Shown one piece after another: positions 926 to 53,497 of a stretch of 56,012 nt of DNA (within the stretch, counting starts at the first letter, position 1; each line of letters begins with the position of its first letter). Below the pieces are notes generated by a model. It worked only from the letters and a program-made list of their open reading frames with translations. It searched no databases and was not told where the DNA came from. Origin of the DNA: Betaproteobacteria bacterium (GTDB lineage: Bacteria > Pseudomonadota > Gammaproteobacteria > Burkholderiales > SG8-41); contig JANNPG010000153.1 in assembly GCA_031399805.1 (NCBI GenBank), forward strand, positions 1 through 56,012, read 5' to 3'. A program made the position numbers and the translations under genes.

Positions 926-1480
926 ATGTTGGCAGCGGCCGATGCAGAGGAATTACTGAAGACCGCGGAGCCTGTATGTTCGGCGGCGGTCGTGGACCGC
1001 ACGGTGCGGCGCATGGCGGCGGAGATTTCCGCCGCGTTTGCGACCCTGAATCCGCTGGTGTTGAGCGTAATGAGCGGGGCGGTCGTGTTCAGCGGGCAGT
1101 TATTGCCCCTGCTGAAGTTCCCGCTGGCTTTCGATTACATACACCTGACGCGTTACGGCAACGCCACCCGCGGCGGCCGCATCGAGTGGAAGGTATTTCC
1201 GGCCGACGCGGTTGCGGGACGCGTGGTACTGGTACTCGATGACATTCTCGACGAAGGGCATACCCTGCTCGAAATCCGGCGGCGGGTGCTGGAAGCCGGT
1301 GCCAGCCGGTTTTATGCAGCGGTGTTTGCCGACAAGGAGATCGGCAGACCCAAGCCGATTGCCGCCGATTTTGTGGGCATCCGGCTGCCGAACCGTTATG
1401 TCTTCGGCTTCGGCATGGACGTCAAAGGCGCATGGCGGAATTTACCTGACATCTACGCACTTAAGAACGGTAAGGAGTGA
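926..1480 (+). CDS. Hypoxanthine/guanine phosphoribosyltransferase-family protein
   Basis: PRPP-binding motif VVLVLDDILDEGHTL. The size (184 aa) and the ATG at 926 fit the family. The longer ORF from 791 overlaps the end of galU. Confidence 0.8.
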   Translation: MLAAADAEELLKTAEPVCSAAVVDRTVRRMAAEISAAFATLNPLVLSVMSGAVVFSGQLLPLLKFPLAFDYIHLTRYGNATRGGRIEWKVFPADAVAGRVVLVLDDILDEGHTLLEIRRRVLEAGASRFYAAVFADKEIGRPKPIAADFVGIRLPNRYVFGFGMDVKGAWRNLPDIYALKNGKE

Positions 1481-1624
1481 GGCGTGAGGAGCGAGGCGGC
1501 AACAAACGCGTTGTGGCATAACAAACTTTATTTCGGTTTCTGGTGGTTGCAAGGCCCGACCGCGGGCATGGCGCGCGCTGTCCGCAGTTTTGCATTTTTT
1601 TTCACTTCACGCGTCGCGCCTCAC
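1477..1624. repeat. Intergenic element: three direct heptamers GTGAGGC-GTGAGGA-GCGAGGC (1477-1497), a 106-nt spacer, then three inverted heptamers ACTTCAC-GCGTCGC-GCCTCAC (1604-1624)
   Basis: Read directly from the sequence. The first heptamer contains the upstream TGA stop (1478-1480). The last heptamer ends 11 nt before ATG 1636. A second copy with the same architecture lies at 28577-28724. Confidence 0.7.
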
Positions 1625-1635
1625 GCCTTTCTGCC

Positions 1636-2382
1636 ATGTTAGCGATCATCGGCGGCAGCGGCTTTGCGCACATGTCCAACCTCGAGTCGATTCGACGCGA
1701 AGTGGTGCGCACCCCCTATGGCGAGCCGTCGGGCGCGCTCACTTTCGGCAGCATCGCCGGGCATGCGGTCGTTTTTCTGGCGCGTCACGGCTACGGTCAT
1801 ACGATACCGCCGCACCAGATCAATTACCGCGCGAATATCTGGGCCTTGCACGCGCGCGGCGCAAAAAAAGTGGTGGCGATCGCGGCAGTCGGCGGTATAC
1901 GCAGCGGCCTCGAACCCGGCGCCGTCGTGGTTCCTGATCAGATCATCGACTATACGCACGGTCGGGCCGGCACTTTTTTTGAATTGGAAGGCCGCGGCGT
2001 GCAGCACATCGACTTCACTCTGCCGTATTCGCCGAAGCTCCGCGCGGCGTGTCTGGAAGCGGCGCGGCAGGCCGGCGAGCCGGTGGTCGACGGCGGAGTT
2101 TATGCCGCGACCCAGGGTCCGCGCCTTGAAACCGCGGCCGAAATCAATCGGCTCGAGCGCGATGGTGCCGACGTGGTTGGCATGACCGGCATGCCGGAAG
2201 CAGTACTCGCGCGGGAAATTGGCCTGTCTTACGCAACGTTGGCCATCGTTGTCAATCATGCGGCGGGACGCGGTGCCAGCCATACGGGGATCGCCTTGGA
2301 CGCGATGGCGGTGATCCTGCAGCAGGCCATAGGCCGCGTGCAGCGCATCATCGAACACATCGTGAAATTGAATGGCGGTTAG
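1636..2382 (+). CDS. mtnP: S-methyl-5'-thioadenosine/thioinosine phosphorylase (PNP/MTAP family)
   Basis: [10 protein letters not shown]-terminus, [22 protein letters not shown], and [14 protein letters not shown]. Confidence 0.85.
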
Positions 2383-26445: not shown

Positions 26446-28724
<2,279 letters not shown>

Positions 28725-28734
28725 GCTTTCCAGC

Positions 28735-29034
28735 ATGAAACTGCTCGCCCTTGCGCTGCTGGTTCTCATCGCGCTCGTGCAGCACCCGCTTTGGCTGGGC
28801 AAGGGCAGCTGGTTGCGCGTATGGGACATCGATCGGCAGGTGAGGACACAGCGTGATACCAACCAGACGCTCAGCATGCGCAATGCGGCGCTCGATGCCG
28901 AAGTGCGGGATCTCAAGCAGGGGCTGGATGCCATCGAAGAGCGGGCGCGCAGCGAGCTTGGCATGATCAAGCGCGATGAAATCTTCTTCCAGGTGCTAGA
29001 AGCGGGGCGGGGCGGACCGGCCTCCCGGCCGTAG
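28735..29034 (+). CDS. ftsB: Cell division protein FtsB
   Basis: [27 protein letters not shown]-terminal transmembrane segment plus a coiled coil, in the conserved position downstream of eno. Confidence 0.88.
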
Positions 29035-49981: not shown

Positions 49982-52900
49982 ATGCTGAATTTGCCATACG
50001 GGTTGTCGTTTCCCGACCTTTACCATCGCGAAGGCCTCATGCGCCTCGATGCGGCATTCGTGCGCTCGCTCGCCGCGGTCGACGGTGCGTTATGCCAGAG
50101 GCTGCGCGATGCGCGCGAGCACTGCGCAGCGCTCGCAGCGAAGCAGGAATCAGAACTGCTGATTGCGCTCGCTCCTCATCTCGACGACTTCATTGCGCAA
50201 TTGTTCGGCATCCAGTCCGAGGTCGGCGCTTTGTCTGCGCGGCACAACGAGCTCGCGCCGCTCTACAGTTGCAAGCGCCTATTCGTGCAGCGCAAAGCAC
50301 TCCACAAATTCAAGCCGGACGACGCTGCCGCCATCGAGGGCACGTCGCTACGCGCGCAGTTGACCGCGTTGTTCGGCGGCGAGTTCACTGAACTCACGTT
50401 CGCGCAACACGTGGCGCGCTGGCAGGCGGACGAGACAGCGCACGCCGCCGAACTCAATCTGGCCTTGCGGTATGCCGCATGGGCAGCACTTACGCCCGCG
50501 GGCAAATCACTGCATCGGGCAGGCGTGCTGTTCAAGGTTCCGCACAAGCTTGATTACCAGCACCTCGTGCCGCTCGTCGCGGACAGCGCCGCCGGCTATA
50601 CCGCATACACTGCCGCTGCCGCGCAGTTGCGCCGTCGAGCGGGATTCAAGCTGACGGATCCGGGCACCGATCTCGTCGGCGCGCTTGACCAGGCGCATTA
50701 CTGCATCTGGTGCCACGAGCAGGGCAAGGATTCTTGCTCGAAGGGACTTAAGGAGAAAGGCGCGAGCGGCCACGGCACGGCTTCGTTCAAGAGAAGCCCG
50801 TTCGGCGTCACGCTGGCGGGCTGCCCACTGGAGCAAAAAATTTCCGAATTCCACAAGGTGAAGACCGAAGGACTCGCGCTCGGCGCGCTGGCGATGATCG
50901 TGGTCGACAATCCGATGGTGGCGGCGACCGGGCATCGCATCTGCAACGATTGCATGAAAGCGTGCATTTATCAGAAGCAGGAGCCGGTCGATATTCCGCA
51001 GGCGGAAACCCGTACGTTGAAAGATGTGCTCGAACTGCCGTGGGGATTCGAGATCTACAGTCTCTTTACGCGCTGGAATCCGCTCAATCTGTGCACGCCA
51101 TATCCCAAGGCGGCGTCCGCCAAGCGCGTACTGGTCGCTGGCATGGGACCCGCGGGTTTTTCGCTCGCGCACTTCCTGATGAACGACGGCCATGCAGTGG
51201 TCGGCATCGATGGCTTGAAGATCGAGCCGCTGCCCGCGCATATCTCGGGCGTCGATAATCGCGGGCGGCGCGTGGCATTTAAACCGGTGCGCGACGTGCG
51301 CGAGCTTTACGAAGCGCTCGACGATCGCGTGATGGCCGGCTTTGGCGGTGTCGCCGAGTACGGCATCACCGTGAGATGGGACAAGAACTTTCTTAAAGTA
51401 GTGCGGCTCCTGGTCGAGCGGCGCAGCGAGTTCGCTTTGTTCGGCGGTGTGCGCTTCGGCGGCACGCTGACGGCGGATGAGGCATTTCAACTGGGCTTCG
51501 ACCATGTCGCGCTGGCGCTGGGCGCCGGCCGTCCCACCGTGCTCGACATGCCCAACGGACTCGCGCGGGGTGTGCGCACGGCGTCGGATTTCCTGATGGC
51601 GCTGCAATTGACCGGTGCGGCCAAAAAGGATTCGATCGCCAACATGCAGGTCCGATTGCCGGTGGTGGTCATCGGCGGCGGCCTGACCGCGATCGATACG
51701 GCGACCGAATCGCTGGCCTACTATCCGCTGCAGGTGGAAAAGTTTCTGCTGCGTTACGAGGCACTTGCGCGCGAGCACGGTGAAACCGCCGCGCGTATTG
51801 CGTGGAATGAAGAAGAGCGCACGGTGGCTGACGAATTTCTGGCTCACGCGCGCGCCATCCGCGCCGAGCGCGACGCCGCCCAACGCGACGGCCGTGAGCC
51901 GCGAATTCTCGAGCTGTTGCAGAAATGGGGCGGCGTCACTATTGCCTATCGCCGCCGCCTGATCGACAGCCCGTCCTATACGCTGAATCACGAGGAAGTG
52001 CAGAAGGCGCTCGAAGAGGGCATACGTTTTGCCGAGGGACTCACGCCACTCGGCGTTGAAATCGACATGCACGGGCATGCGCGTGCGCTGCGCGTAACGG
52101 CGCAGTCGCGCAATGAAGACGGCACGTGGACCGAGCACGCGCAAATCGAGTTGCCGGCGAAAACGGTCTTGATCGCGGCCGGAACGCAGCCGAATACGGT
52201 GCTTGCTCGCGAGGAGGCGCCAAATTTCCCGCTCGACGGCAAGTACTTCCGCGCGTGTGACGAGGATGGCAAGCCGCTGGCCGTCGAGAAAGCGATCTCG
52301 AAGCCCGAGCAAATCAGGGTTTTGTTGTCGCGGCGCGACGACGGCCGCTTCGTCAGTTACTTCGGCGACGTGCACCCGTCGTTCTTCGGCAACGTGGTGA
52401 AGGCCATCGGCAGCGCAAAGCAGGGTTATCCGGTCGTCAGTCGCGTGCTCGCCAAAGTCGGCGCCGCGTCCAACCTTGACGACGCAGACTTTTTCGCGCG
52501 GCTCAATGACAACCTGCGCGCCACCGTGCATCAAGTGATCCGCCTGACGCCGACGATCGTTGAAGTCGTCGTGCGCGCGCCGCTCGCCGCGCGGCGCTTC
52601 CGGCCAGGGCAGTTTTACCGGCTGCAGAACTATGAAAGCAGCGCGCTCACTGCGGAACACTCACGACTGGCGATGGAAGGGCTGGCGCTGACCGGCGCGT
52701 GGGTTGACGCGGATAAAGGGTTGATCTCGACCATCGTGCTCGAGATGGGCGGATCAAGCGACATGTGCGTGCTGCTCAAACCCGGGGAGCCCGTCGTGCT
52801 CATGGGGCCGACCGGCATGCCGACGGAAATCCCGTCGCATGAGACGGTGGTGCTGGTAGGCGGCGGCTTGGGCAACGCGGTGCTGTTTTCGATCGGCCAG

Positions 52901-53497
52901 GCGATGCGCCGGGCGGGCAATCGTGTGCTCTATTTTGCCGGCTACAAGCACATGATCGACCGCTACAAGGTTGCCGATATCGAAGCCGCGGCGGAGGTGG
53001 TCGTCTGGTGCTGCGACGAAGAACCCGGTTTTACGCCAAGCCGTCCGCTCGACCGCACTTTCGTCGGCAATATCGTGCAGGCGATGCATTCCTACGCCGT
53101 GGGCAATCTGGGCGTGCAGGAAATCCCGCTCAAGTCCGCCGACCGGCTGATGGCGATTGGCTCGGACCGCATGATGGCGGCGGTCGCGGCTGCGCGGCAC
53201 GCAGCATTGAAGCCTTTTCTGAAGCCGCACCATTTTGCGATCGGCTCGATCAACTCGCCGATGCAATGCATGATGAAGGAAATCTGCGCGCAATGTTTGC
53301 AGCCGCACATCGATCCAGAGACCGGCAAGACGAGCTATGTGTTCTCGTGTTTCAATCAGGACCAGCCGCTCGATAACGTCGACTGGCAGGCGCTTAACCA
53401 GCGCCTGCGGCAGAATTCAGTGCAGGAAAAGCTCACCGCCGAGTGGATCGACCATTGCCTGGTCAAGCTCGACAGGCGCACGATGCAGCGGGTGTGA
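49982..53497 (+). CDS. Large (1171 aa) multidomain Fe-S flavoprotein oxidoreductase: Cys-rich N-region, GltD-like FAD/NAD(P) domain, and PyrK-like FAD/[2Fe-2S] electron-transfer domain
   Basis: CIWCHEQGKDSC and CNDCMKAC cysteine clusters. Dinucleotide fold VLVAGMGPAGFSLA and VVVIGGGLTAIDTA. C-terminal RLTPTIVEVVV...FRPGQFYRLQ...VLVGGGLGNA...CMMKEICAQC. Confidence 0.75.
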   Translation: MLNLPYGLSFPDLYHREGLMRLDAAFVRSLAAVDGALCQRLRDAREHCAALAAKQESELLIALAPHLDDFIAQLFGIQSEVGALSARHNELAPLYSCKRLFVQRKALHKFKPDDAAAIEGTSLRAQLTALFGGEFTELTFAQHVARWQADETAHAAELNLALRYAAWAALTPAGKSLHRAGVLFKVPHKLDYQHLVPLVADSAAGYTAYTAAAAQLRRRAGFKLTDPGTDLVGALDQAHYCIWCHEQGKDSCSKGLKEKGASGHGTASFKRSPFGVTLAGCPLEQKISEFHKVKTEGLALGALAMIVVDNPMVAATGHRICNDCMKACIYQKQEPVDIPQAETRTLKDVLELPWGFEIYSLFTRWNPLNLCTPYPKAASAKRVLVAGMGPAGFSLAHFLMNDGHAVVGIDGLKIEPLPAHISGVDNRGRRVAFKPVRDVRELYEALDDRVMAGFGGVAEYGITVRWDKNFLKVVRLLVERRSEFALFGGVRFGGTLTADEAFQLGFDHVALALGAGRPTVLDMPNGLARGVRTASDFLMALQLTGAAKKDSIANMQVRLPVVVIGGGLTAIDTATESLAYYPLQVEKFLLRYEALAREHGETAARIAWNEEERTVADEFLAHARAIRAERDAAQRDGREPRILELLQKWGGVTIAYRRRLIDSPSYTLNHEEVQKALEEGIRFAEGLTPLGVEIDMHGHARALRVTAQSRNEDGTWTEHAQIELPAKTVLIAAGTQPNTVLAREEAPNFPLDGKYFRACDEDGKPLAVEKAISKPEQIRVLLSRRDDGRFVSYFGDVHPSFFGNVVKAIGSAKQGYPVVSRVLAKVGAASNLDDADFFARLNDNLRATVHQVIRLTPTIVEVVVRAPLAARRFRPGQFYRLQNYESSALTAEHSRLAMEGLALTGAWVDADKGLISTIVLEMGGSSDMCVLLKPGEPVVLMGPTGMPTEIPSHETVVLVGGGLGNAVLFSIGQAMRRAGNRVLYFAGYKHMIDRYKVADIEAAAEVVVWCCDEEPGFTPSRPLDRTFVGNIVQAMHSYAVGNLGVQEIPLKSADRLMAIGSDRMMAAVAAARHAALKPFLKPHHFAIGSINSPMQCMMKEICAQCLQPHIDPETGKTSYVFSCFNQDQPLDNVDWQALNQRLRQNSVQEKLTAEWIDHCLVKLDRRTMQRV

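What the first reader, a model, noticed from the sequence alone, without database searches (positions are those of the whole stretch)
1477..1635. A repeated intergenic element built from inverted heptamer arrays, present at two unrelated loci
**Locus 1 (hpt-like to mtnP).** GTGAGGC GTGAGGA GCGAGGC, 106 nt, ACTTCAC GCGTCGC GCCTCAC, 11 nt (GCCTTTCTGCC), then ATG.

**Locus 2 (eno to ftsB, 28577-28734).** GTGAGGC GAGAGGT GAGAGGC GAGAGGC, 99 nt, CCCTCAC GCCTCGC TTCTCAC, 10 nt (GCTTTCCAGC), then ATG.

In both loci the first heptamer supplies the TGA stop of the upstream gene. The spacers begin similarly (ACAAACGCG versus ACAAAAACGCAG), and the tails before the ATG are alike. This is one element family with defined ends, not chance GC-rich repeats.

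It has no coding capacity that I can see. It carries no terminal features of known REP/BIME or MITE families that I can name. I found no further full copy in the window.
Basis: seen in the sequence. Interest (0 to 1): 0.65.

Follow-up and report, generated by a model that had tools for sequence, protein, structure and literature searches.

The report
Heptamer-repeat foldback inserts between operon genes
Two roughly 160-base hairpin-forming inserts, whose arms are tandem 7-base repeats, sit exactly between the stop and start codons of gene pairs that nearly touch in related bacteria; they belong to a widespread, already noticed but unexplained class of bacterial heptamer repeats.

Summary
Both loci carry four GNGAGGN units, a unique 99-106 nt interior, four NCCTCNC units, then ATG 3-4 nt later. 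The upstream TGA lies inside the left arm. Such triple-heptamer matches occur only at these two loci (8 hits against 0.21 expected).

Both are lineage-specific insertions. Relatives have 4-18 nt spacers at the same hpt-like/mtnP and eno/ftsB junctions.

It is not one homologous family. The interiors are unrelated, single-copy and evolve fast; only the arms are shared.

A pattern scan found more than 119 such elements across many phyla. The G-rich arm always comes first (16:0 in an unbiased sample). Four units is the modal arm length. Most lie between co-directional genes, about half bridging stop to start.

This matches the heptameric repeat pairs described in Xanthomonas (Rehm 2015), whose function is unknown.

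Best reading: a foldback-type insert whose mRNA hairpin loops out the interior and keeps stop and start juxtaposed, preserving translational coupling. That mechanism is inferred, and the origin is unresolved.

Verdict: new member of a known kind, of moderate interest.

The parts
926..1480 (+). Phosphoribosyltransferase (hpt-like) gene. Its last three codons and its TGA stop lie inside the left arm.
   Evidence: Pfam PF00156. Translation. Relatives end 2 codons earlier, at ...GGT TGA.
1470..1497 (+). Locus 1 left arm: GTAAGGA GTGAGGC GTGAGGA GCGAGGC. It carries a stop codon in each of the three reading frames (TAA 1471, TGA 1478, TGA 1485).
1498..1603 (+). Locus 1 interior: 106 nt, unique, 53% GC. 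It contains a hairpin followed by T8 at about 1548-1602.
   Evidence: Single-copy depth.
1604..1631 (+). Locus 1 right arm: ACTTCAC GCGTCGC GCCTCAC GCCTTTC.
   Evidence: A strain variant has GCCTCAC as the second unit.
1636..2382 (+). Methylthioadenosine/methylthioinosine phosphorylase gene. Its ATG lies 4 nt after the right arm, with no Shine-Dalgarno sequence between.
   Evidence: Homologues are 247-248 aa with 100% coverage, and the gene is called with this start in the source collection.
27294..28580 (+). Enolase gene. Its TGA stop is bases 2-4 of the first heptamer.
28577..28604 (+). Locus 2 left arm: GTGAGGC GAGAGGT GAGAGGC GAGAGGC.
28605..28703 (+). Locus 2 interior: 99 nt, unique. It contains an 11-bp perfect hairpin at 28641-28668.
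   Evidence: Single-copy depth.
28704..28731 (+). Locus 2 right arm: CCCTCAC GCCTCGC TTCTCAC GCTTTCC.
28735..29034 (+). ftsB (DivIC family) gene. Its ATG lies 3 nt after the right arm, with no Shine-Dalgarno sequence between.
   Evidence: Relatives' FtsB is 99 aa with the same start.

Best explanation
WHAT IT IS. Each locus is a roughly 160-nt foldback insert. It has four tandem G-rich heptamers (GNGAGGN), a unique and unconstrained interior of about 100 nt, and four heptamers of the complement (NCCTCNC).

Both were acquired in this Burkholderiales lineage. They landed directly at the stop codon of two operon junctions that are only 4-18 nt wide in relatives.

They are members of a widespread class of heptameric simple-sequence-repeat inverted pairs. 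In that class the unit type is genome-specific and the unit number changes by slippage.

HOW IT MOST LIKELY WORKS (inferred, not shown). In the polycistronic mRNA the two arms pair into a long imperfect stem that loops out the interior. This puts the upstream stop codon, at the 5' base of the stem, next to the downstream AUG, 3-4 nt past the 3' base.

The downstream AUG has no Shine-Dalgarno sequence of its own, and its upstream 28 nt are held in the stem. A ribosome terminating inside the G-arm would melt the lower stem and expose the start. The SD-like AAGGAG/GAGG at the 5' base might also be brought next to the AUG across the helix. Either way, the original translational coupling would survive a 150-nt insertion.

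The fixed G-first geometry has two possible benefits. GTGAGGN arrays close all three reading frames. The C-rich, G-poor arm is transcribed only after its partner exists, so it is never free.

How the insert is generated (transposition, repair-linked or other) is unknown.
For: SHOWN: INSERTION.
- The eno-ftsB spacer is 12-18 nt in three relatives with 90-94% enolase identity.
- The PRTase-MTAP spacer is 13 nt in an 89% relative and 4 nt in an 81% relative.
- Same-species contigs carry the element unchanged.
- Metagenome contigs from related populations skip it.

SHOWN: THE CLASS IS REAL.
- More than 119 loci in many phyla matched a pattern with about 0.03 chance hits expected (the expectation is my own calculation).
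- Arm unit type matches between left and right arms at unit position 2 (96/118, 45.5 expected) and unit position 7 (76/118, 32.7 expected).
- The modal arm length is 4 units.
- In an unselected sample of additional arrays, G-then-C geometry is 16 against 0.
- In viral contigs it is 6 loci against 1, and that one is two adjacent elements.

SHOWN: POSITION.
- Of 51 callable pairs, 42 are co-directional, 6 convergent and 3 divergent.
- Among the 42, the stop lies within -35 to +30 nt of the G-arm edge in 33, and inside the arm in 13.
- The start lies 0-40 nt after the C-arm in 28. Both conditions hold in 23.
- Many ATGs lie 2-12 nt after the C-arm, with no room for an SD.
- The heptamer TGA is used as the stop in unit 1, 2 or 3 in 11, 7 and 8 cases.

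SHOWN: ARMS MATTER, THE INTERIOR DOES NOT.
- In the orthologous gcvH-gcvP pair the flanks are about 94% identical (my estimate from the printed alignment) and the interior matched at 80% over 86 nt. The arm differs by exactly two units.
- The yicC-gmk junction carries elements in three MAGs. The arms are intact and the interiors cannot be aligned.

SHOWN: HAIRPIN.
- Both loci fold with the arms as the outer stem, reaching to 1-3 nt before the AUG. MFE is -67.9 and -70.0 kcal/mol, z -2.3 and -2.4.

SHOWN: SAME JUNCTION ELSEWHERE.
- Of 82 eno-ftsB junctions, 57 are 34 nt or shorter, and 13 overlap by 4 nt.
- Most of the 25 longest spacers (50 nt or more) are hairpins that start at the stop codon. 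Some are foldbacks built from other heptamers, such as GGTAATG and GAGAGGA.

LITERATURE.
- The same placement rules, convergent pairing and preference for four units are reported for GGGAATC repeats in Xanthomonas (PMC4692102).
Against: - No transcript or translation data exist for this uncultured organism. Only DNA runs were found. Hairpin formation in vivo and coupling are therefore inferred.
- The fold z-scores are modest. The stems are imperfect (71% complementarity over the full arms).
- Arm matching across elements could reflect genome-specific unit preference rather than selection for pairing.
- About 44% of elements use GAGAGG, GCGAGG or GGGAGG units, which lack TGA/GTG. The all-frame-stop argument is therefore not general.
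- Only about half of the co-directional cases bridge both codons.
- Nine of 51 elements lie between convergent or divergent genes, where coupling cannot be the point.
- The mechanism that creates the insert is not explained.
Confidence: 0.5

Rival explanations
1. It is a purely selfish foldback-type miniature mobile element. Tandem-heptamer terminal inverted repeats are the recognition sites of an unknown trans-acting enzyme. The hairpin and the stop/start bridging are only the filter that decides which insertions survive, and the element has no cis function.
For: - There are filled and empty sites among close relatives at both loci.
- The unit type is genome-specific across several copies per genome, for example RYN_577, CTOTU25577 and the Verrucomicrobia MOSS genome.
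- Some genomes have copies with homologous interiors: two copies at 92% identity in opposite orientation in Chitiniphilus, plus L013 and L086 and two copies on one viral contig.
- The geometry is strictly fixed, as expected for terminal inverted repeats.
- The inner boundary motif is conserved.
Against: - No target-site duplication is visible at either window locus when compared with the empty sites.
- Interiors are unrelated between nearly all copies and single-copy in this organism.
- Interior length ranges from 2 to 134 nt.
- No transposase was identified, and none could be searched for without the whole genome.
- In Xanthomonas the repeats were not associated with mobile elements, and 83% are positionally conserved between species.
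Confidence: 0.25
2. It is an intercistronic mRNA processing or stability element that works like REP/BIME hairpins or RNase III sites. The 20-28 bp stem would be cut by RNase III, or would block 3' exonucleases, so that upstream and downstream cistrons get different half-lives.
For: - A long outer stem is predicted at both loci.
- Elements strongly prefer co-directional gene pairs.
- Arms are maintained while interiors drift.
- Established knowledge: RNase III needs about two turns of dsRNA, and REP hairpins stabilise upstream mRNA in the E. coli malE-malF operon (from my own knowledge, not from a tool result).
Against: - No RNA data are available.
- Cleavage would leave the downstream cistron with a 5' end a few nt from an AUG that lacks an SD, which seems unfavourable.
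- This reading does not explain the G-first geometry or why stop codons lie inside the arm.
Confidence: 0.13
3. It acts at the DNA level. The arrays would be binding sites for a protein that reads 7-bp phased repeats (as ribbon-helix-helix proteins read heptads), or would form G-quadruplex, i-motif or cruciform structures that influence transcription or replication.
For: - The preference for four units, as needed for a four-tract quadruplex, is seen here and in Xanthomonas, where G4 formation was shown in vitro.
- Unit types are genome-specific.
- Heptad arrays are bound by the omega protein at pSM19035 parS (paper listed; the mechanism is from my own knowledge).
Against: - GTGAGGC and GAGAGGC units have only GG doublets, which make poor quadruplex formers.
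- This reading does not explain why elements hug stop and start codons of co-directional genes and avoid divergent promoter regions.
- No candidate binding protein is known.
Confidence: 0.08
4. It grew in situ. Ordinary replication slippage expanded short native sequences on both sides of a pre-existing spacer, with no insertion event, or the resemblance between the two loci is coincidence.
For: - Unit number does change by slippage: there is an exact 14-nt difference between orthologues.
- Period 7 dominates the tandem repeats in carrier genomes, with 447 of 945 TRF rows.
- The native enolase end, CGG TGA, resembles the start of a unit.
Against: - Relatives have only 4-18 nt at both junctions, so about 100 nt of interior has no local precursor.
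- Both loci use the same unit although their native junction sequences differ.
- The chance expectation is 0.21 hits against 8 observed.
Confidence: 0.04

Closest known systems
Heptameric G-rich simple-sequence repeats of Xanthomonas and Nostoc (GGGAATC / GGGGAYT; Rehm et al. 2015, PMC4692102). More generally, the heptanucleotide SSR over-representation noted by Mrazek et al. 2007, as cited in that paper.
   Same: - Tandem 7-nt units, with a preference for four units.
[quoted passage not shown] - 70-75 convergent inverted pairs per genome.
- Unit number varies between related species.
- Function unknown.
   Different: - A different unit (GNGAGGN, SD-like, often carrying TGA).
- Different hosts (here Burkholderiales, and by my scan many phyla).
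- The published work stressed positional conservation and G-quadruplexes. It did not show empty sites, unrelated interiors, the stop/start bridging of tight operon junctions, or copies with shared interiors.
Foldback (FB-type) transposons of eukaryotes (Drosophila FB and relatives). This comparison comes from my own knowledge and was not tested here.
   Same: Long terminal inverted repeats that are themselves built of short tandem repeats. The central loops differ between copies or are absent. The number of repeat units is variable.
   Different: - Those elements are eukaryotic and kilobase-scale, with a known associated transposase in some cases.
- Here the elements are about 150 nt, no enzyme is known and no target-site duplication is seen.
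- Homology is not implied.
REP/BIME and MITE elements of bacteria
   Same: Small, non-coding, intergenic and hairpin-forming. Often found inside operons. Present in some relatives and absent in others.
   Different: - REPs are single 20-40 nt palindromes with a conserved tetranucleotide and a cognate RAYT transposase.
- MITEs are homologous copies with terminal repeats and target-site duplications.
- Here the arms are tandem heptamers, the interiors are unrelated and no duplication is seen.
TAACTGA heptamer direct repeats of Beggiatoaceae, cyanobacteria and Bacteroidetes (MacGregor 2015, PMC4679880), and cyanobacterial STRR heptamers
   Same: - Genome-specific heptamer arrays of 2-6 units.
- Intergenic, often ending a few nt before a start codon.
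- Stop codons in all frames.
- Relatives have shorter spacers without repeats.
   Different: - Almost always single direct arrays (one inverted case in 170), not paired foldbacks.
- AT-rich unit.
Translational coupling through long-range mRNA pairing (for example rpmI-rplT in E. coli, MS2 coat-replicase) and hairpin-bridged split ribosome-binding sites (phage T4 genes 25 and 38). From my own knowledge.
   Same: The proposed mode of action is the same. The start region is paired with sequence at the end of the upstream cistron and opened by the translating ribosome, or the SD and AUG are brought together across a stem.
   Different: Those structures are unique, gene-specific sequences. They are not a repeated, insertable module made of tandem heptamers.

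Membership tests
Heptameric SSR inverted pairs (Rehm et al. 2015 class) | Tandem head-to-tail 7-nt units, at least 2-3 per array | tested here: met
   TRF reports period 7 at 1473-1496 and 28579-28604. There are four units per arm.
Heptameric SSR inverted pairs (Rehm et al. 2015 class) | Two arrays in convergent orientation, with the G-rich strand reading inward on both sides | tested here: met
   for the window. The geometry is 16:0 in unselected pairs and 6:1 in viral contigs, where the one exception is an artefact of adjacent elements.
Heptameric SSR inverted pairs (Rehm et al. 2015 class) | The G-rich array lies within 50 bp after a stop codon or overlaps it. The C-rich array lies within 50 bp upstream of a start. 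Co-directional ORFs are preferred. | tested here: met
   In the window the stops lie inside the first full unit and the ATG follows the arm by 3-4 nt. For the class.
Heptameric SSR inverted pairs (Rehm et al. 2015 class) | Preference for four units, with unit number variable between relatives | tested here: met
   The mode is 4 units: 55 of 119 left arms and 40 of 119 right arms. Orthologues differ by two units.
Heptameric SSR inverted pairs (Rehm et al. 2015 class) | High copy number over the whole genome (about 180 arrays per Xanthomonas genome) | not testable with these tools
   Only 56 kb of this genome is available, and it holds 2 elements. Raised metagenome depth over the arm at 28570-28603 (70-109 against about 6.6 in the flanks, run X21) suggests such arrays are common in the community.
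MITE | Terminal inverted repeats | tested here: met
MITE | Target-site duplication flanking the insert | tested here: not met
   Comparison of filled sites with empty sites shows no direct repeat at the boundaries.
MITE | Multiple homologous copies, including the interior, in one genome | tested here: not met
   The two window interiors are unrelated to each other and to all others and are single-copy in metagenome depth. The feature is met in other genomes: Chitiniphilus L069, plus L013, L086 and L214.
REP/BIME | A single 20-40 nt imperfect palindrome with a conserved motif, in alternating orientation, with a cognate RAYT | tested here: not met
   The arms are tandem heptamers about 100 nt apart. 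No REP-type palindrome defines the ends. RAYT presence cannot be tested without the genome.
Known structured RNA family (Rfam 15) | A match to a covariance model at gathering score | tested here: not met
   No hit at gathering score in the whole window. Only E>1 noise appears at both loci.
Intrinsic terminator or sigma-70 promoter cassette | A GC-rich stem followed by a U-run, or -35/-10 hexamers | tested here: not met
   The consensus scans find neither within the elements. The locus 1 interior has a hairpin followed by T8, but its stability equals that of shuffles.
Foldback transposon (architecture only) | Inverted repeats made of tandem short units, with heterogeneous loops | tested here: met
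Foldback transposon (architecture only) | Mobilisation by a dedicated transposase | not testable with these tools
   No whole genomes or co-occurrence statistics are available.

The most novel reading that the evidence does not exclude
Bacteria of many phyla, and some viral contigs, may harbour a so far unnamed class of foldback-type insertable elements. Their terminal inverted repeats would be genome-specific tandem heptamers and their loops arbitrary DNA.

They would be generated by an unknown trans-acting activity. One possibility is a transposase that reads 7-bp phased sites. Another is repeat addition to both 3' ends of a double-strand break followed by capture of filler DNA. The second option would by itself produce the invariant G-strand-inward geometry and the unrelated interiors.

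Such elements would preferentially survive at stop codons of tightly coupled operon junctions, because the hairpin restores coupling.

One hint of captured filler: 36 nt of the locus 2 interior resemble the reverse complement of a coding segment 22 kb away. The local alignment score is 41, against a maximum of 39 in 1500 shuffles.
Probability: 0.2. Interest if true: 0.8.

Novelty: new member of a known kind. Interest (0 to 1): 0.5.

Why it matters
Heptamer repeats are the most over-represented long simple-sequence repeats in many bacterial genomes. Their origin and role have been open since at least 2007-2015.

This window gives two unusually clean cases. The ancestral state is known (near-touching or overlapping genes), the insert boundaries can be read to within a few bases, and the consequence for the downstream gene can be stated as a testable prediction (an AUG without an SD, 3-4 nt from a 28-nt arm).

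The wider scan shows that the same architecture recurs from Proteobacteria to Cyanobacteria, Planctomycetota, Gemmatimonadota and viral contigs. It has a strictly fixed polarity. It has colonised the same eno-ftsB junction independently with different heptamer units.

If the coupling-by-hairpin idea holds, these elements show how operons tolerate, or exploit, insertions at their most sensitive points. If a dedicated generating activity exists, it would be a new kind of prokaryotic mobile or repair-linked DNA.

There is also a practical point. Gene callers may mis-place starts downstream of such elements, and assemblers may break at them.

Tried and rejected
1. Known RNA family. Rfam at gathering score on the window, and at E up to 5 on both loci, gave nothing.

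2. Promoter or terminator cassette. The consensus scans were empty inside the elements. The hairpin plus T8 in interior 1 is no more stable than shuffles.

3. Classical MITE or homologous family. All-against-all blastn of 118 interiors found almost no relationships, and none for the window copies. No target-site duplication appears against the empty sites.

4. Interior copied from nearby DNA. The locus 1 interior has no match in the window. The locus 2 interior has one 36-nt match, which I kept only as a lead. A search of each element's interior against its own 8-kb locus gave hits in only a few genomes.

5. Finding the source genome by exact protein. FtsB and enolase are not on record. MTAP found same-species contigs that are identical across the element, so they give no covariation information.

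6. Literature search for GTGAGGC, GTGAGGG, CCCTCAC or GCCTCAC repeats: nothing relevant. Later work on GGGAATC repeats: none found. General heptamer-repeat terms: nothing further.

7. RNA evidence. Only DNA metagenome runs hold these sequences.

8. Formal covariation analysis of the stem was not attempted. The only orthologous sets are pairs or triplets, and arm matching is confounded by genome-specific unit choice.

9. The idea that the GAGG core (SD / anti-SD mimicry) is essential was set aside. My pattern imposed GAGG. Carrier loci hold many other heptamer arrays (141 of 186 lack GAGG). GGTAATG foldbacks occupy the same eno-ftsB junction.
Full report
OBSERVATION.

At locus 1, the heptamers GTGAGGC GTGAGGA GCGAGGC occupy 1477-1497. 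A 106-nt interior follows. ACTTCAC GCGTCGC GCCTCAC lie at 1604-1624. An 11-nt tail precedes the ATG at 1636.

At locus 2, four heptamers lie at 28577-28604. A 99-nt interior follows. Three complementary heptamers lie at 28704-28724. A 10-nt tail precedes the ATG at 28735.

The flanking genes are a phosphoribosyltransferase and a methylthioadenosine-type phosphorylase at locus 1, and enolase and FtsB at locus 2. In both loci the upstream TGA is bases 2-4 of a GTGAGGC unit.

A search for three consecutive GNGAGGN units with up to two mismatches hits only these two loci. There are 8 hits against 0.21 expected, and none of 100 shuffles reaches 8.

I add one refinement: each arm has four units, not three. 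GTAAGGA at 1470-1476 pairs with GCCTTTC at 1625-1631. GCTTTCC at 28725-28731 is the fourth right-hand unit at locus 2. The 'tails' are therefore decayed outer units, and the start codons follow the arms by only 4 and 3 nt.

The inverted-repeat finder reports arms of 38 nt at 71% (or 19 nt at 89%) at locus 1. At locus 2 it reports 31 nt at 71% (or 20 nt at 80%). Several registers, shifted by 7 nt, can pair.

BOTH COPIES ARE INSERTIONS.

The organism is an uncultured Burkholderiales bacterium from freshwater sediment.

Three relatives with 90-94% identical enolase have eno-ftsB spacers of 12-18 nt and no element. Relatives with 89% and 81% identical MTAP have spacers of 13 and 4 nt.

Contigs of the same species (identical MTAP) carry the element unchanged. 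Contigs of related populations in the same metagenomes jump across both elements.

Alignment with the empty sites places the left boundary at the native stop codon. At locus 1 the array replaced the native stop and added two codons, Lys-Glu, before its own in-frame TGA. The right boundary lies a few bases before the start codon. I see no target-site duplication.

NOT A HOMOLOGOUS FAMILY, BUT A WIDESPREAD CLASS.

The two interiors share no significant similarity with each other or with any other interior. Both are single-copy by metagenome depth.

I scanned one genome per species with a pattern that demands three G-units, 88-118 nt, and three degenerate C-units. I calculate that about 0.03 hits would be expected by chance.

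The hosts span Beta- and Gammaproteobacteria, Gemmatimonadota, Planctomycetota, Acidobacteriota, Verrucomicrobiota, Cyanobacteria, Bacteroidota, Chloroflexota, Actinomycetota and Clostridia. Six viral contigs also carry such elements.

Several features were not imposed by the pattern:
- The free positions of the unit agree between the left and right arms. Unit position 2 agrees in 96/118 (45.5 expected) and position 7 in 76/118 (32.7 expected); no shuffle out of 5000 reaches either value.
- Four units is the modal arm length.
- The unit type is the same among several copies from one genome.
- The array ends inward with a partial unit and an A-rich stretch, G(T/A)(A/G)AA.
- Interiors are 5.6% lower in GC than their loci.

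Polarity was tested without selection bias. Among 63 additional arrays that happened to lie in the fetched loci, adjacent pairs are G-then-C 16 times and C-then-G never. With mirrored patterns on viral contigs the count is 6 loci against 1. That one is the C-arm of one element followed by the next G-array.

In that unselected sample, interior lengths run from 2 to 134 nt.

GENE CONTEXT.

Fifty-one elements have both flanks clearly coding. Of these, 42 lie between co-directional genes, 6 between convergent genes and 3 between divergent genes.

In the 42 co-directional cases:
- The upstream stop is within -35 to +30 nt of the G-arm edge in 33, and inside the arm in 13.
- A start codon lies 0-40 nt beyond the C-arm in 28.
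- Both conditions hold in 23.

The heptamer's TGA serves as the stop in the first, second or third unit in 11, 7 and 8 cases. This is what one expects if a GTGAGGN array closes whichever frame runs into it. The three TGAs of consecutive units fall in three different frames; locus 1 shows this with TAA 1471, TGA 1478 and TGA 1485.

Many downstream ATGs sit 2-12 nt from the C-arm, leaving no room for a Shine-Dalgarno sequence. So 'always bridges stop and start' is false, but bridging is the most common arrangement.

EVOLUTIONARY BEHAVIOUR.

The gcvH-gcvP junction carries orthologous elements in two genomes. I estimate from the printed alignment that the flanking genes are about 94% identical. 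The interior matched at 80% over 86 nt. One arm differs by exactly 14 nt, which is two units.

The yicC-gmk junction carries an element in three Burkholderiales MAGs. The flanks there are about 80% identical and the arms are near-perfect, but the interiors cannot be aligned.

A strain variant of locus 1 in one metagenome has GCCTCAC where the window has the decayed GCGTCGC.

So the arms are maintained or continually renewed, unit number slips, and interiors drift as neutral DNA.

In a few genomes the interior is repeated:
- Chitiniphilus shinanonensis has two copies, 92% identical and in opposite orientation, on either side of an ABC-transporter binding-protein gene.
- L013 and L086 show repeated interior segments.
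- One viral contig has two copies whose similarity extends into the flanks.

This shows that whole elements can be duplicated or moved.

THE eno-ftsB JUNCTION AS A NATURAL EXPERIMENT.

I collected 82 such junctions from metagenomes:
- 57 have spacers of 34 nt or less, and 13 of these are 4-nt overlaps. Tight coupling is therefore ancestral.
- 25 have spacers of 50-271 nt.

Most of these long spacers are hairpins that start at the stop codon. Many pair the stop-proximal end with the start-proximal end.

Some are heptamer foldbacks with other units:
- GAGAGGA/GATAGGC in L190.
- GGTAATG in L137, L187, L170 and L184.
- Decayed GAGG units in L132 and L139.

A separate low-GC lineage carries a long non-heptamer palindrome at the same place.

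The architecture therefore does not depend on the GAGG core. In carrier loci, period 7 accounts for 447 of 945 tandem-repeat rows. Of the 186 period-7 arrays outside the selected elements, 141 lack GAGG.

WHAT IS KNOWN.

Rehm et al. 2015 (PMC4692102) described GGGAATC heptamer arrays in Xanthomonas and GGGGAYT arrays in Nostoc. They reported:
- a preference for four units;
- 70-75 convergent inverted pairs per Xanthomonas genome;
- the G-rich strand within 50 bp after a stop codon, sometimes overlapping it, or on the non-coding strand just upstream of a start;
- depletion between divergent genes;
- 83% positional conservation between two species, with length variation;
- transcription of most repeats;
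- no identified function.

MacGregor 2015 (PMC4679880) described TAACTGA arrays ending just before start codons.

I found nothing on GTGAGGN-type repeats and no later mechanistic work.

The window elements meet every testable defining feature of the Rehm class. They fail the MITE criteria of target duplication and homologous copies. They fail the REP criteria and have no Rfam match.

In architecture the closest analogue I know is the eukaryotic foldback transposon, which has inverted repeats built of tandem short units and heterogeneous loops. That is a resemblance recalled from memory, not a tested membership.

MECHANISM.

Shown:
- Both elements are insertions at tightly spaced operon junctions.
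- The arms can form the outer stem of the minimum-energy fold up to 1-3 nt before the AUG. The energies are -67.9 and -70.0 kcal/mol, with z -2.3 and -2.4.
- The downstream genes keep their conserved start positions.
- No promoter-like or terminator-like site lies inside the elements.

Inferred:
- The genes remain co-transcribed.
- The hairpin loops out the interior and re-creates the ancestral stop/start proximity.
- A ribosome terminating in the G-arm opens the lower stem and exposes an otherwise masked AUG that lacks an SD. Alternatively, the SD-like AAGGAG/GAGG at the 5' base acts across the helix.

G-first polarity would be favoured for two reasons. It supplies stops, and it keeps the C-rich, G-poor arm paired from the moment it is made, which would avoid Rho loading. 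This last point is my inference.

I give this combined reading about 0.5. The main rivals are a purely selfish foldback element (0.25), an RNase III or stability element (0.13), a DNA-level structure or protein site (0.08), and in-situ growth or chance (0.04). The first two rivals are not exclusive of the best explanation.

The step that creates the insert is unexplained. One lead is that 36 nt of the locus 2 interior resemble the reverse complement of a segment inside the ORF at 49982-53497. The alignment score is 41, against at most 39 in 1500 dinucleotide shuffles. This hints that interiors may be captured filler DNA.

VERDICT.

This is a real, non-chance feature, and it is correctly described. 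The 'single family' interpretation needs correcting. It is a new member (new unit, new hosts, clean empty sites) of a described but unexplained class. Interest is moderate, 0.5. The individual finding is not unprecedented, but the class is broad, sharply patterned and mechanistically open, and these two loci make a concrete hypothesis testable.

Noticed in passing
window 28677-28710 and window about 50925-50961 (minus strand), inside the ORF at 49982-53497: A 36-nt stretch of the locus 2 interior (GCTTTCGTGCAATCGTTGC--ATGCGCTGTTCGGTC) resembles the reverse complement of a coding segment 22 kb away. The local score is 41, against a maximum of 39 in 1500 dinucleotide shuffles. The interior may be captured filler DNA, or this may be a coincidence.
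   Followed up: partly
window 1548-1602: The interior of locus 1 contains a hairpin (TTGCAAGG...CAGTTTTGCA) followed by T8. It looks like a terminator on the + strand, but its folding energy equals that of shuffled sequence (z = -0.02).
   Followed up: partly
window 28641-28668: The interior of locus 2 contains an 11-bp perfect hairpin (GCGGCGATTGC / GCAATCGTTGC) with z = -3.15. It overlaps the segment that matches the distant ORF.
   Followed up: partly
L069 6625-6765 and 7793-7910 (Chitiniphilus shinanonensis DSM 23277): Two heptamer foldbacks share a 92% identical interior of about 45 nt. They lie in opposite orientation on either side of a sugar ABC-transporter binding-protein gene. The first is composite, with an extra 3-unit G-array. 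This is a cultured organism in which the class could be studied.
   Followed up: partly
L137, L187, L170 and L184 (eno-ftsB junction, metagenome contigs): These are foldbacks built from a different heptamer, GGTAATG / CATTACC, at the same junction. The unit contains the stop-start overlap TAATG.
   Followed up: partly
L176, L178, L181, L159, L200, L210 and L167 (eno-ftsB junction, low-GC Betaproteobacteria): A conserved long palindrome that is not heptamer-based (TTTCAAATGCAATCGAGCCAA ... TTGGCTCGATTGCAAATGAAA) starts right after the enolase stop. Its folding z-scores reach -6.8. It is a different hairpin insert at the same site.
   Followed up: no
L113, L044 and L067 (yicC-gmk junction in three Burkholderiales MAGs): The same junction carries a GTGAGGN foldback in three genomes. 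The arms are intact but the interiors cannot be aligned. This could be long persistence with arm maintenance, or repeated insertion at a hot spot.
   Followed up: partly
L103, L109 and L008 interiors: A REP-like palindrome, CCCTCTCCCCCGC(A/T)(T/C)GCGGGGGAGAGGG, sits inside the interior of several foldbacks from different genomes. These look like nested small repeats.
   Followed up: no
L214 7784-7929 and 10599-10744 (IMG/VR viral contig, AT-rich): Two GTGAGGA foldbacks lie on one viral contig. The similarity extends beyond the arms into AT-rich flanks. Such elements therefore also occur on contigs classified as viral.
   Followed up: partly
849 kb of carrier loci (L006-L124): Tandem repeats of period 7 far outnumber all other periods (447 of 945 TRF rows; period 6 has 59 and period 8 has 71). 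Many unrelated units are involved, such as AAACCTT, ACTCCGC and AAGTCGT.
   Followed up: partly
window 28570-28603 and 28689-28722, in runs X21 and X22: Metagenome contig depth over the heptamer arms is 4-17 times that of the flanking single-copy sequence. GAGAGGC-type arrays therefore seem to be common in these sediment communities.
   Followed up: no
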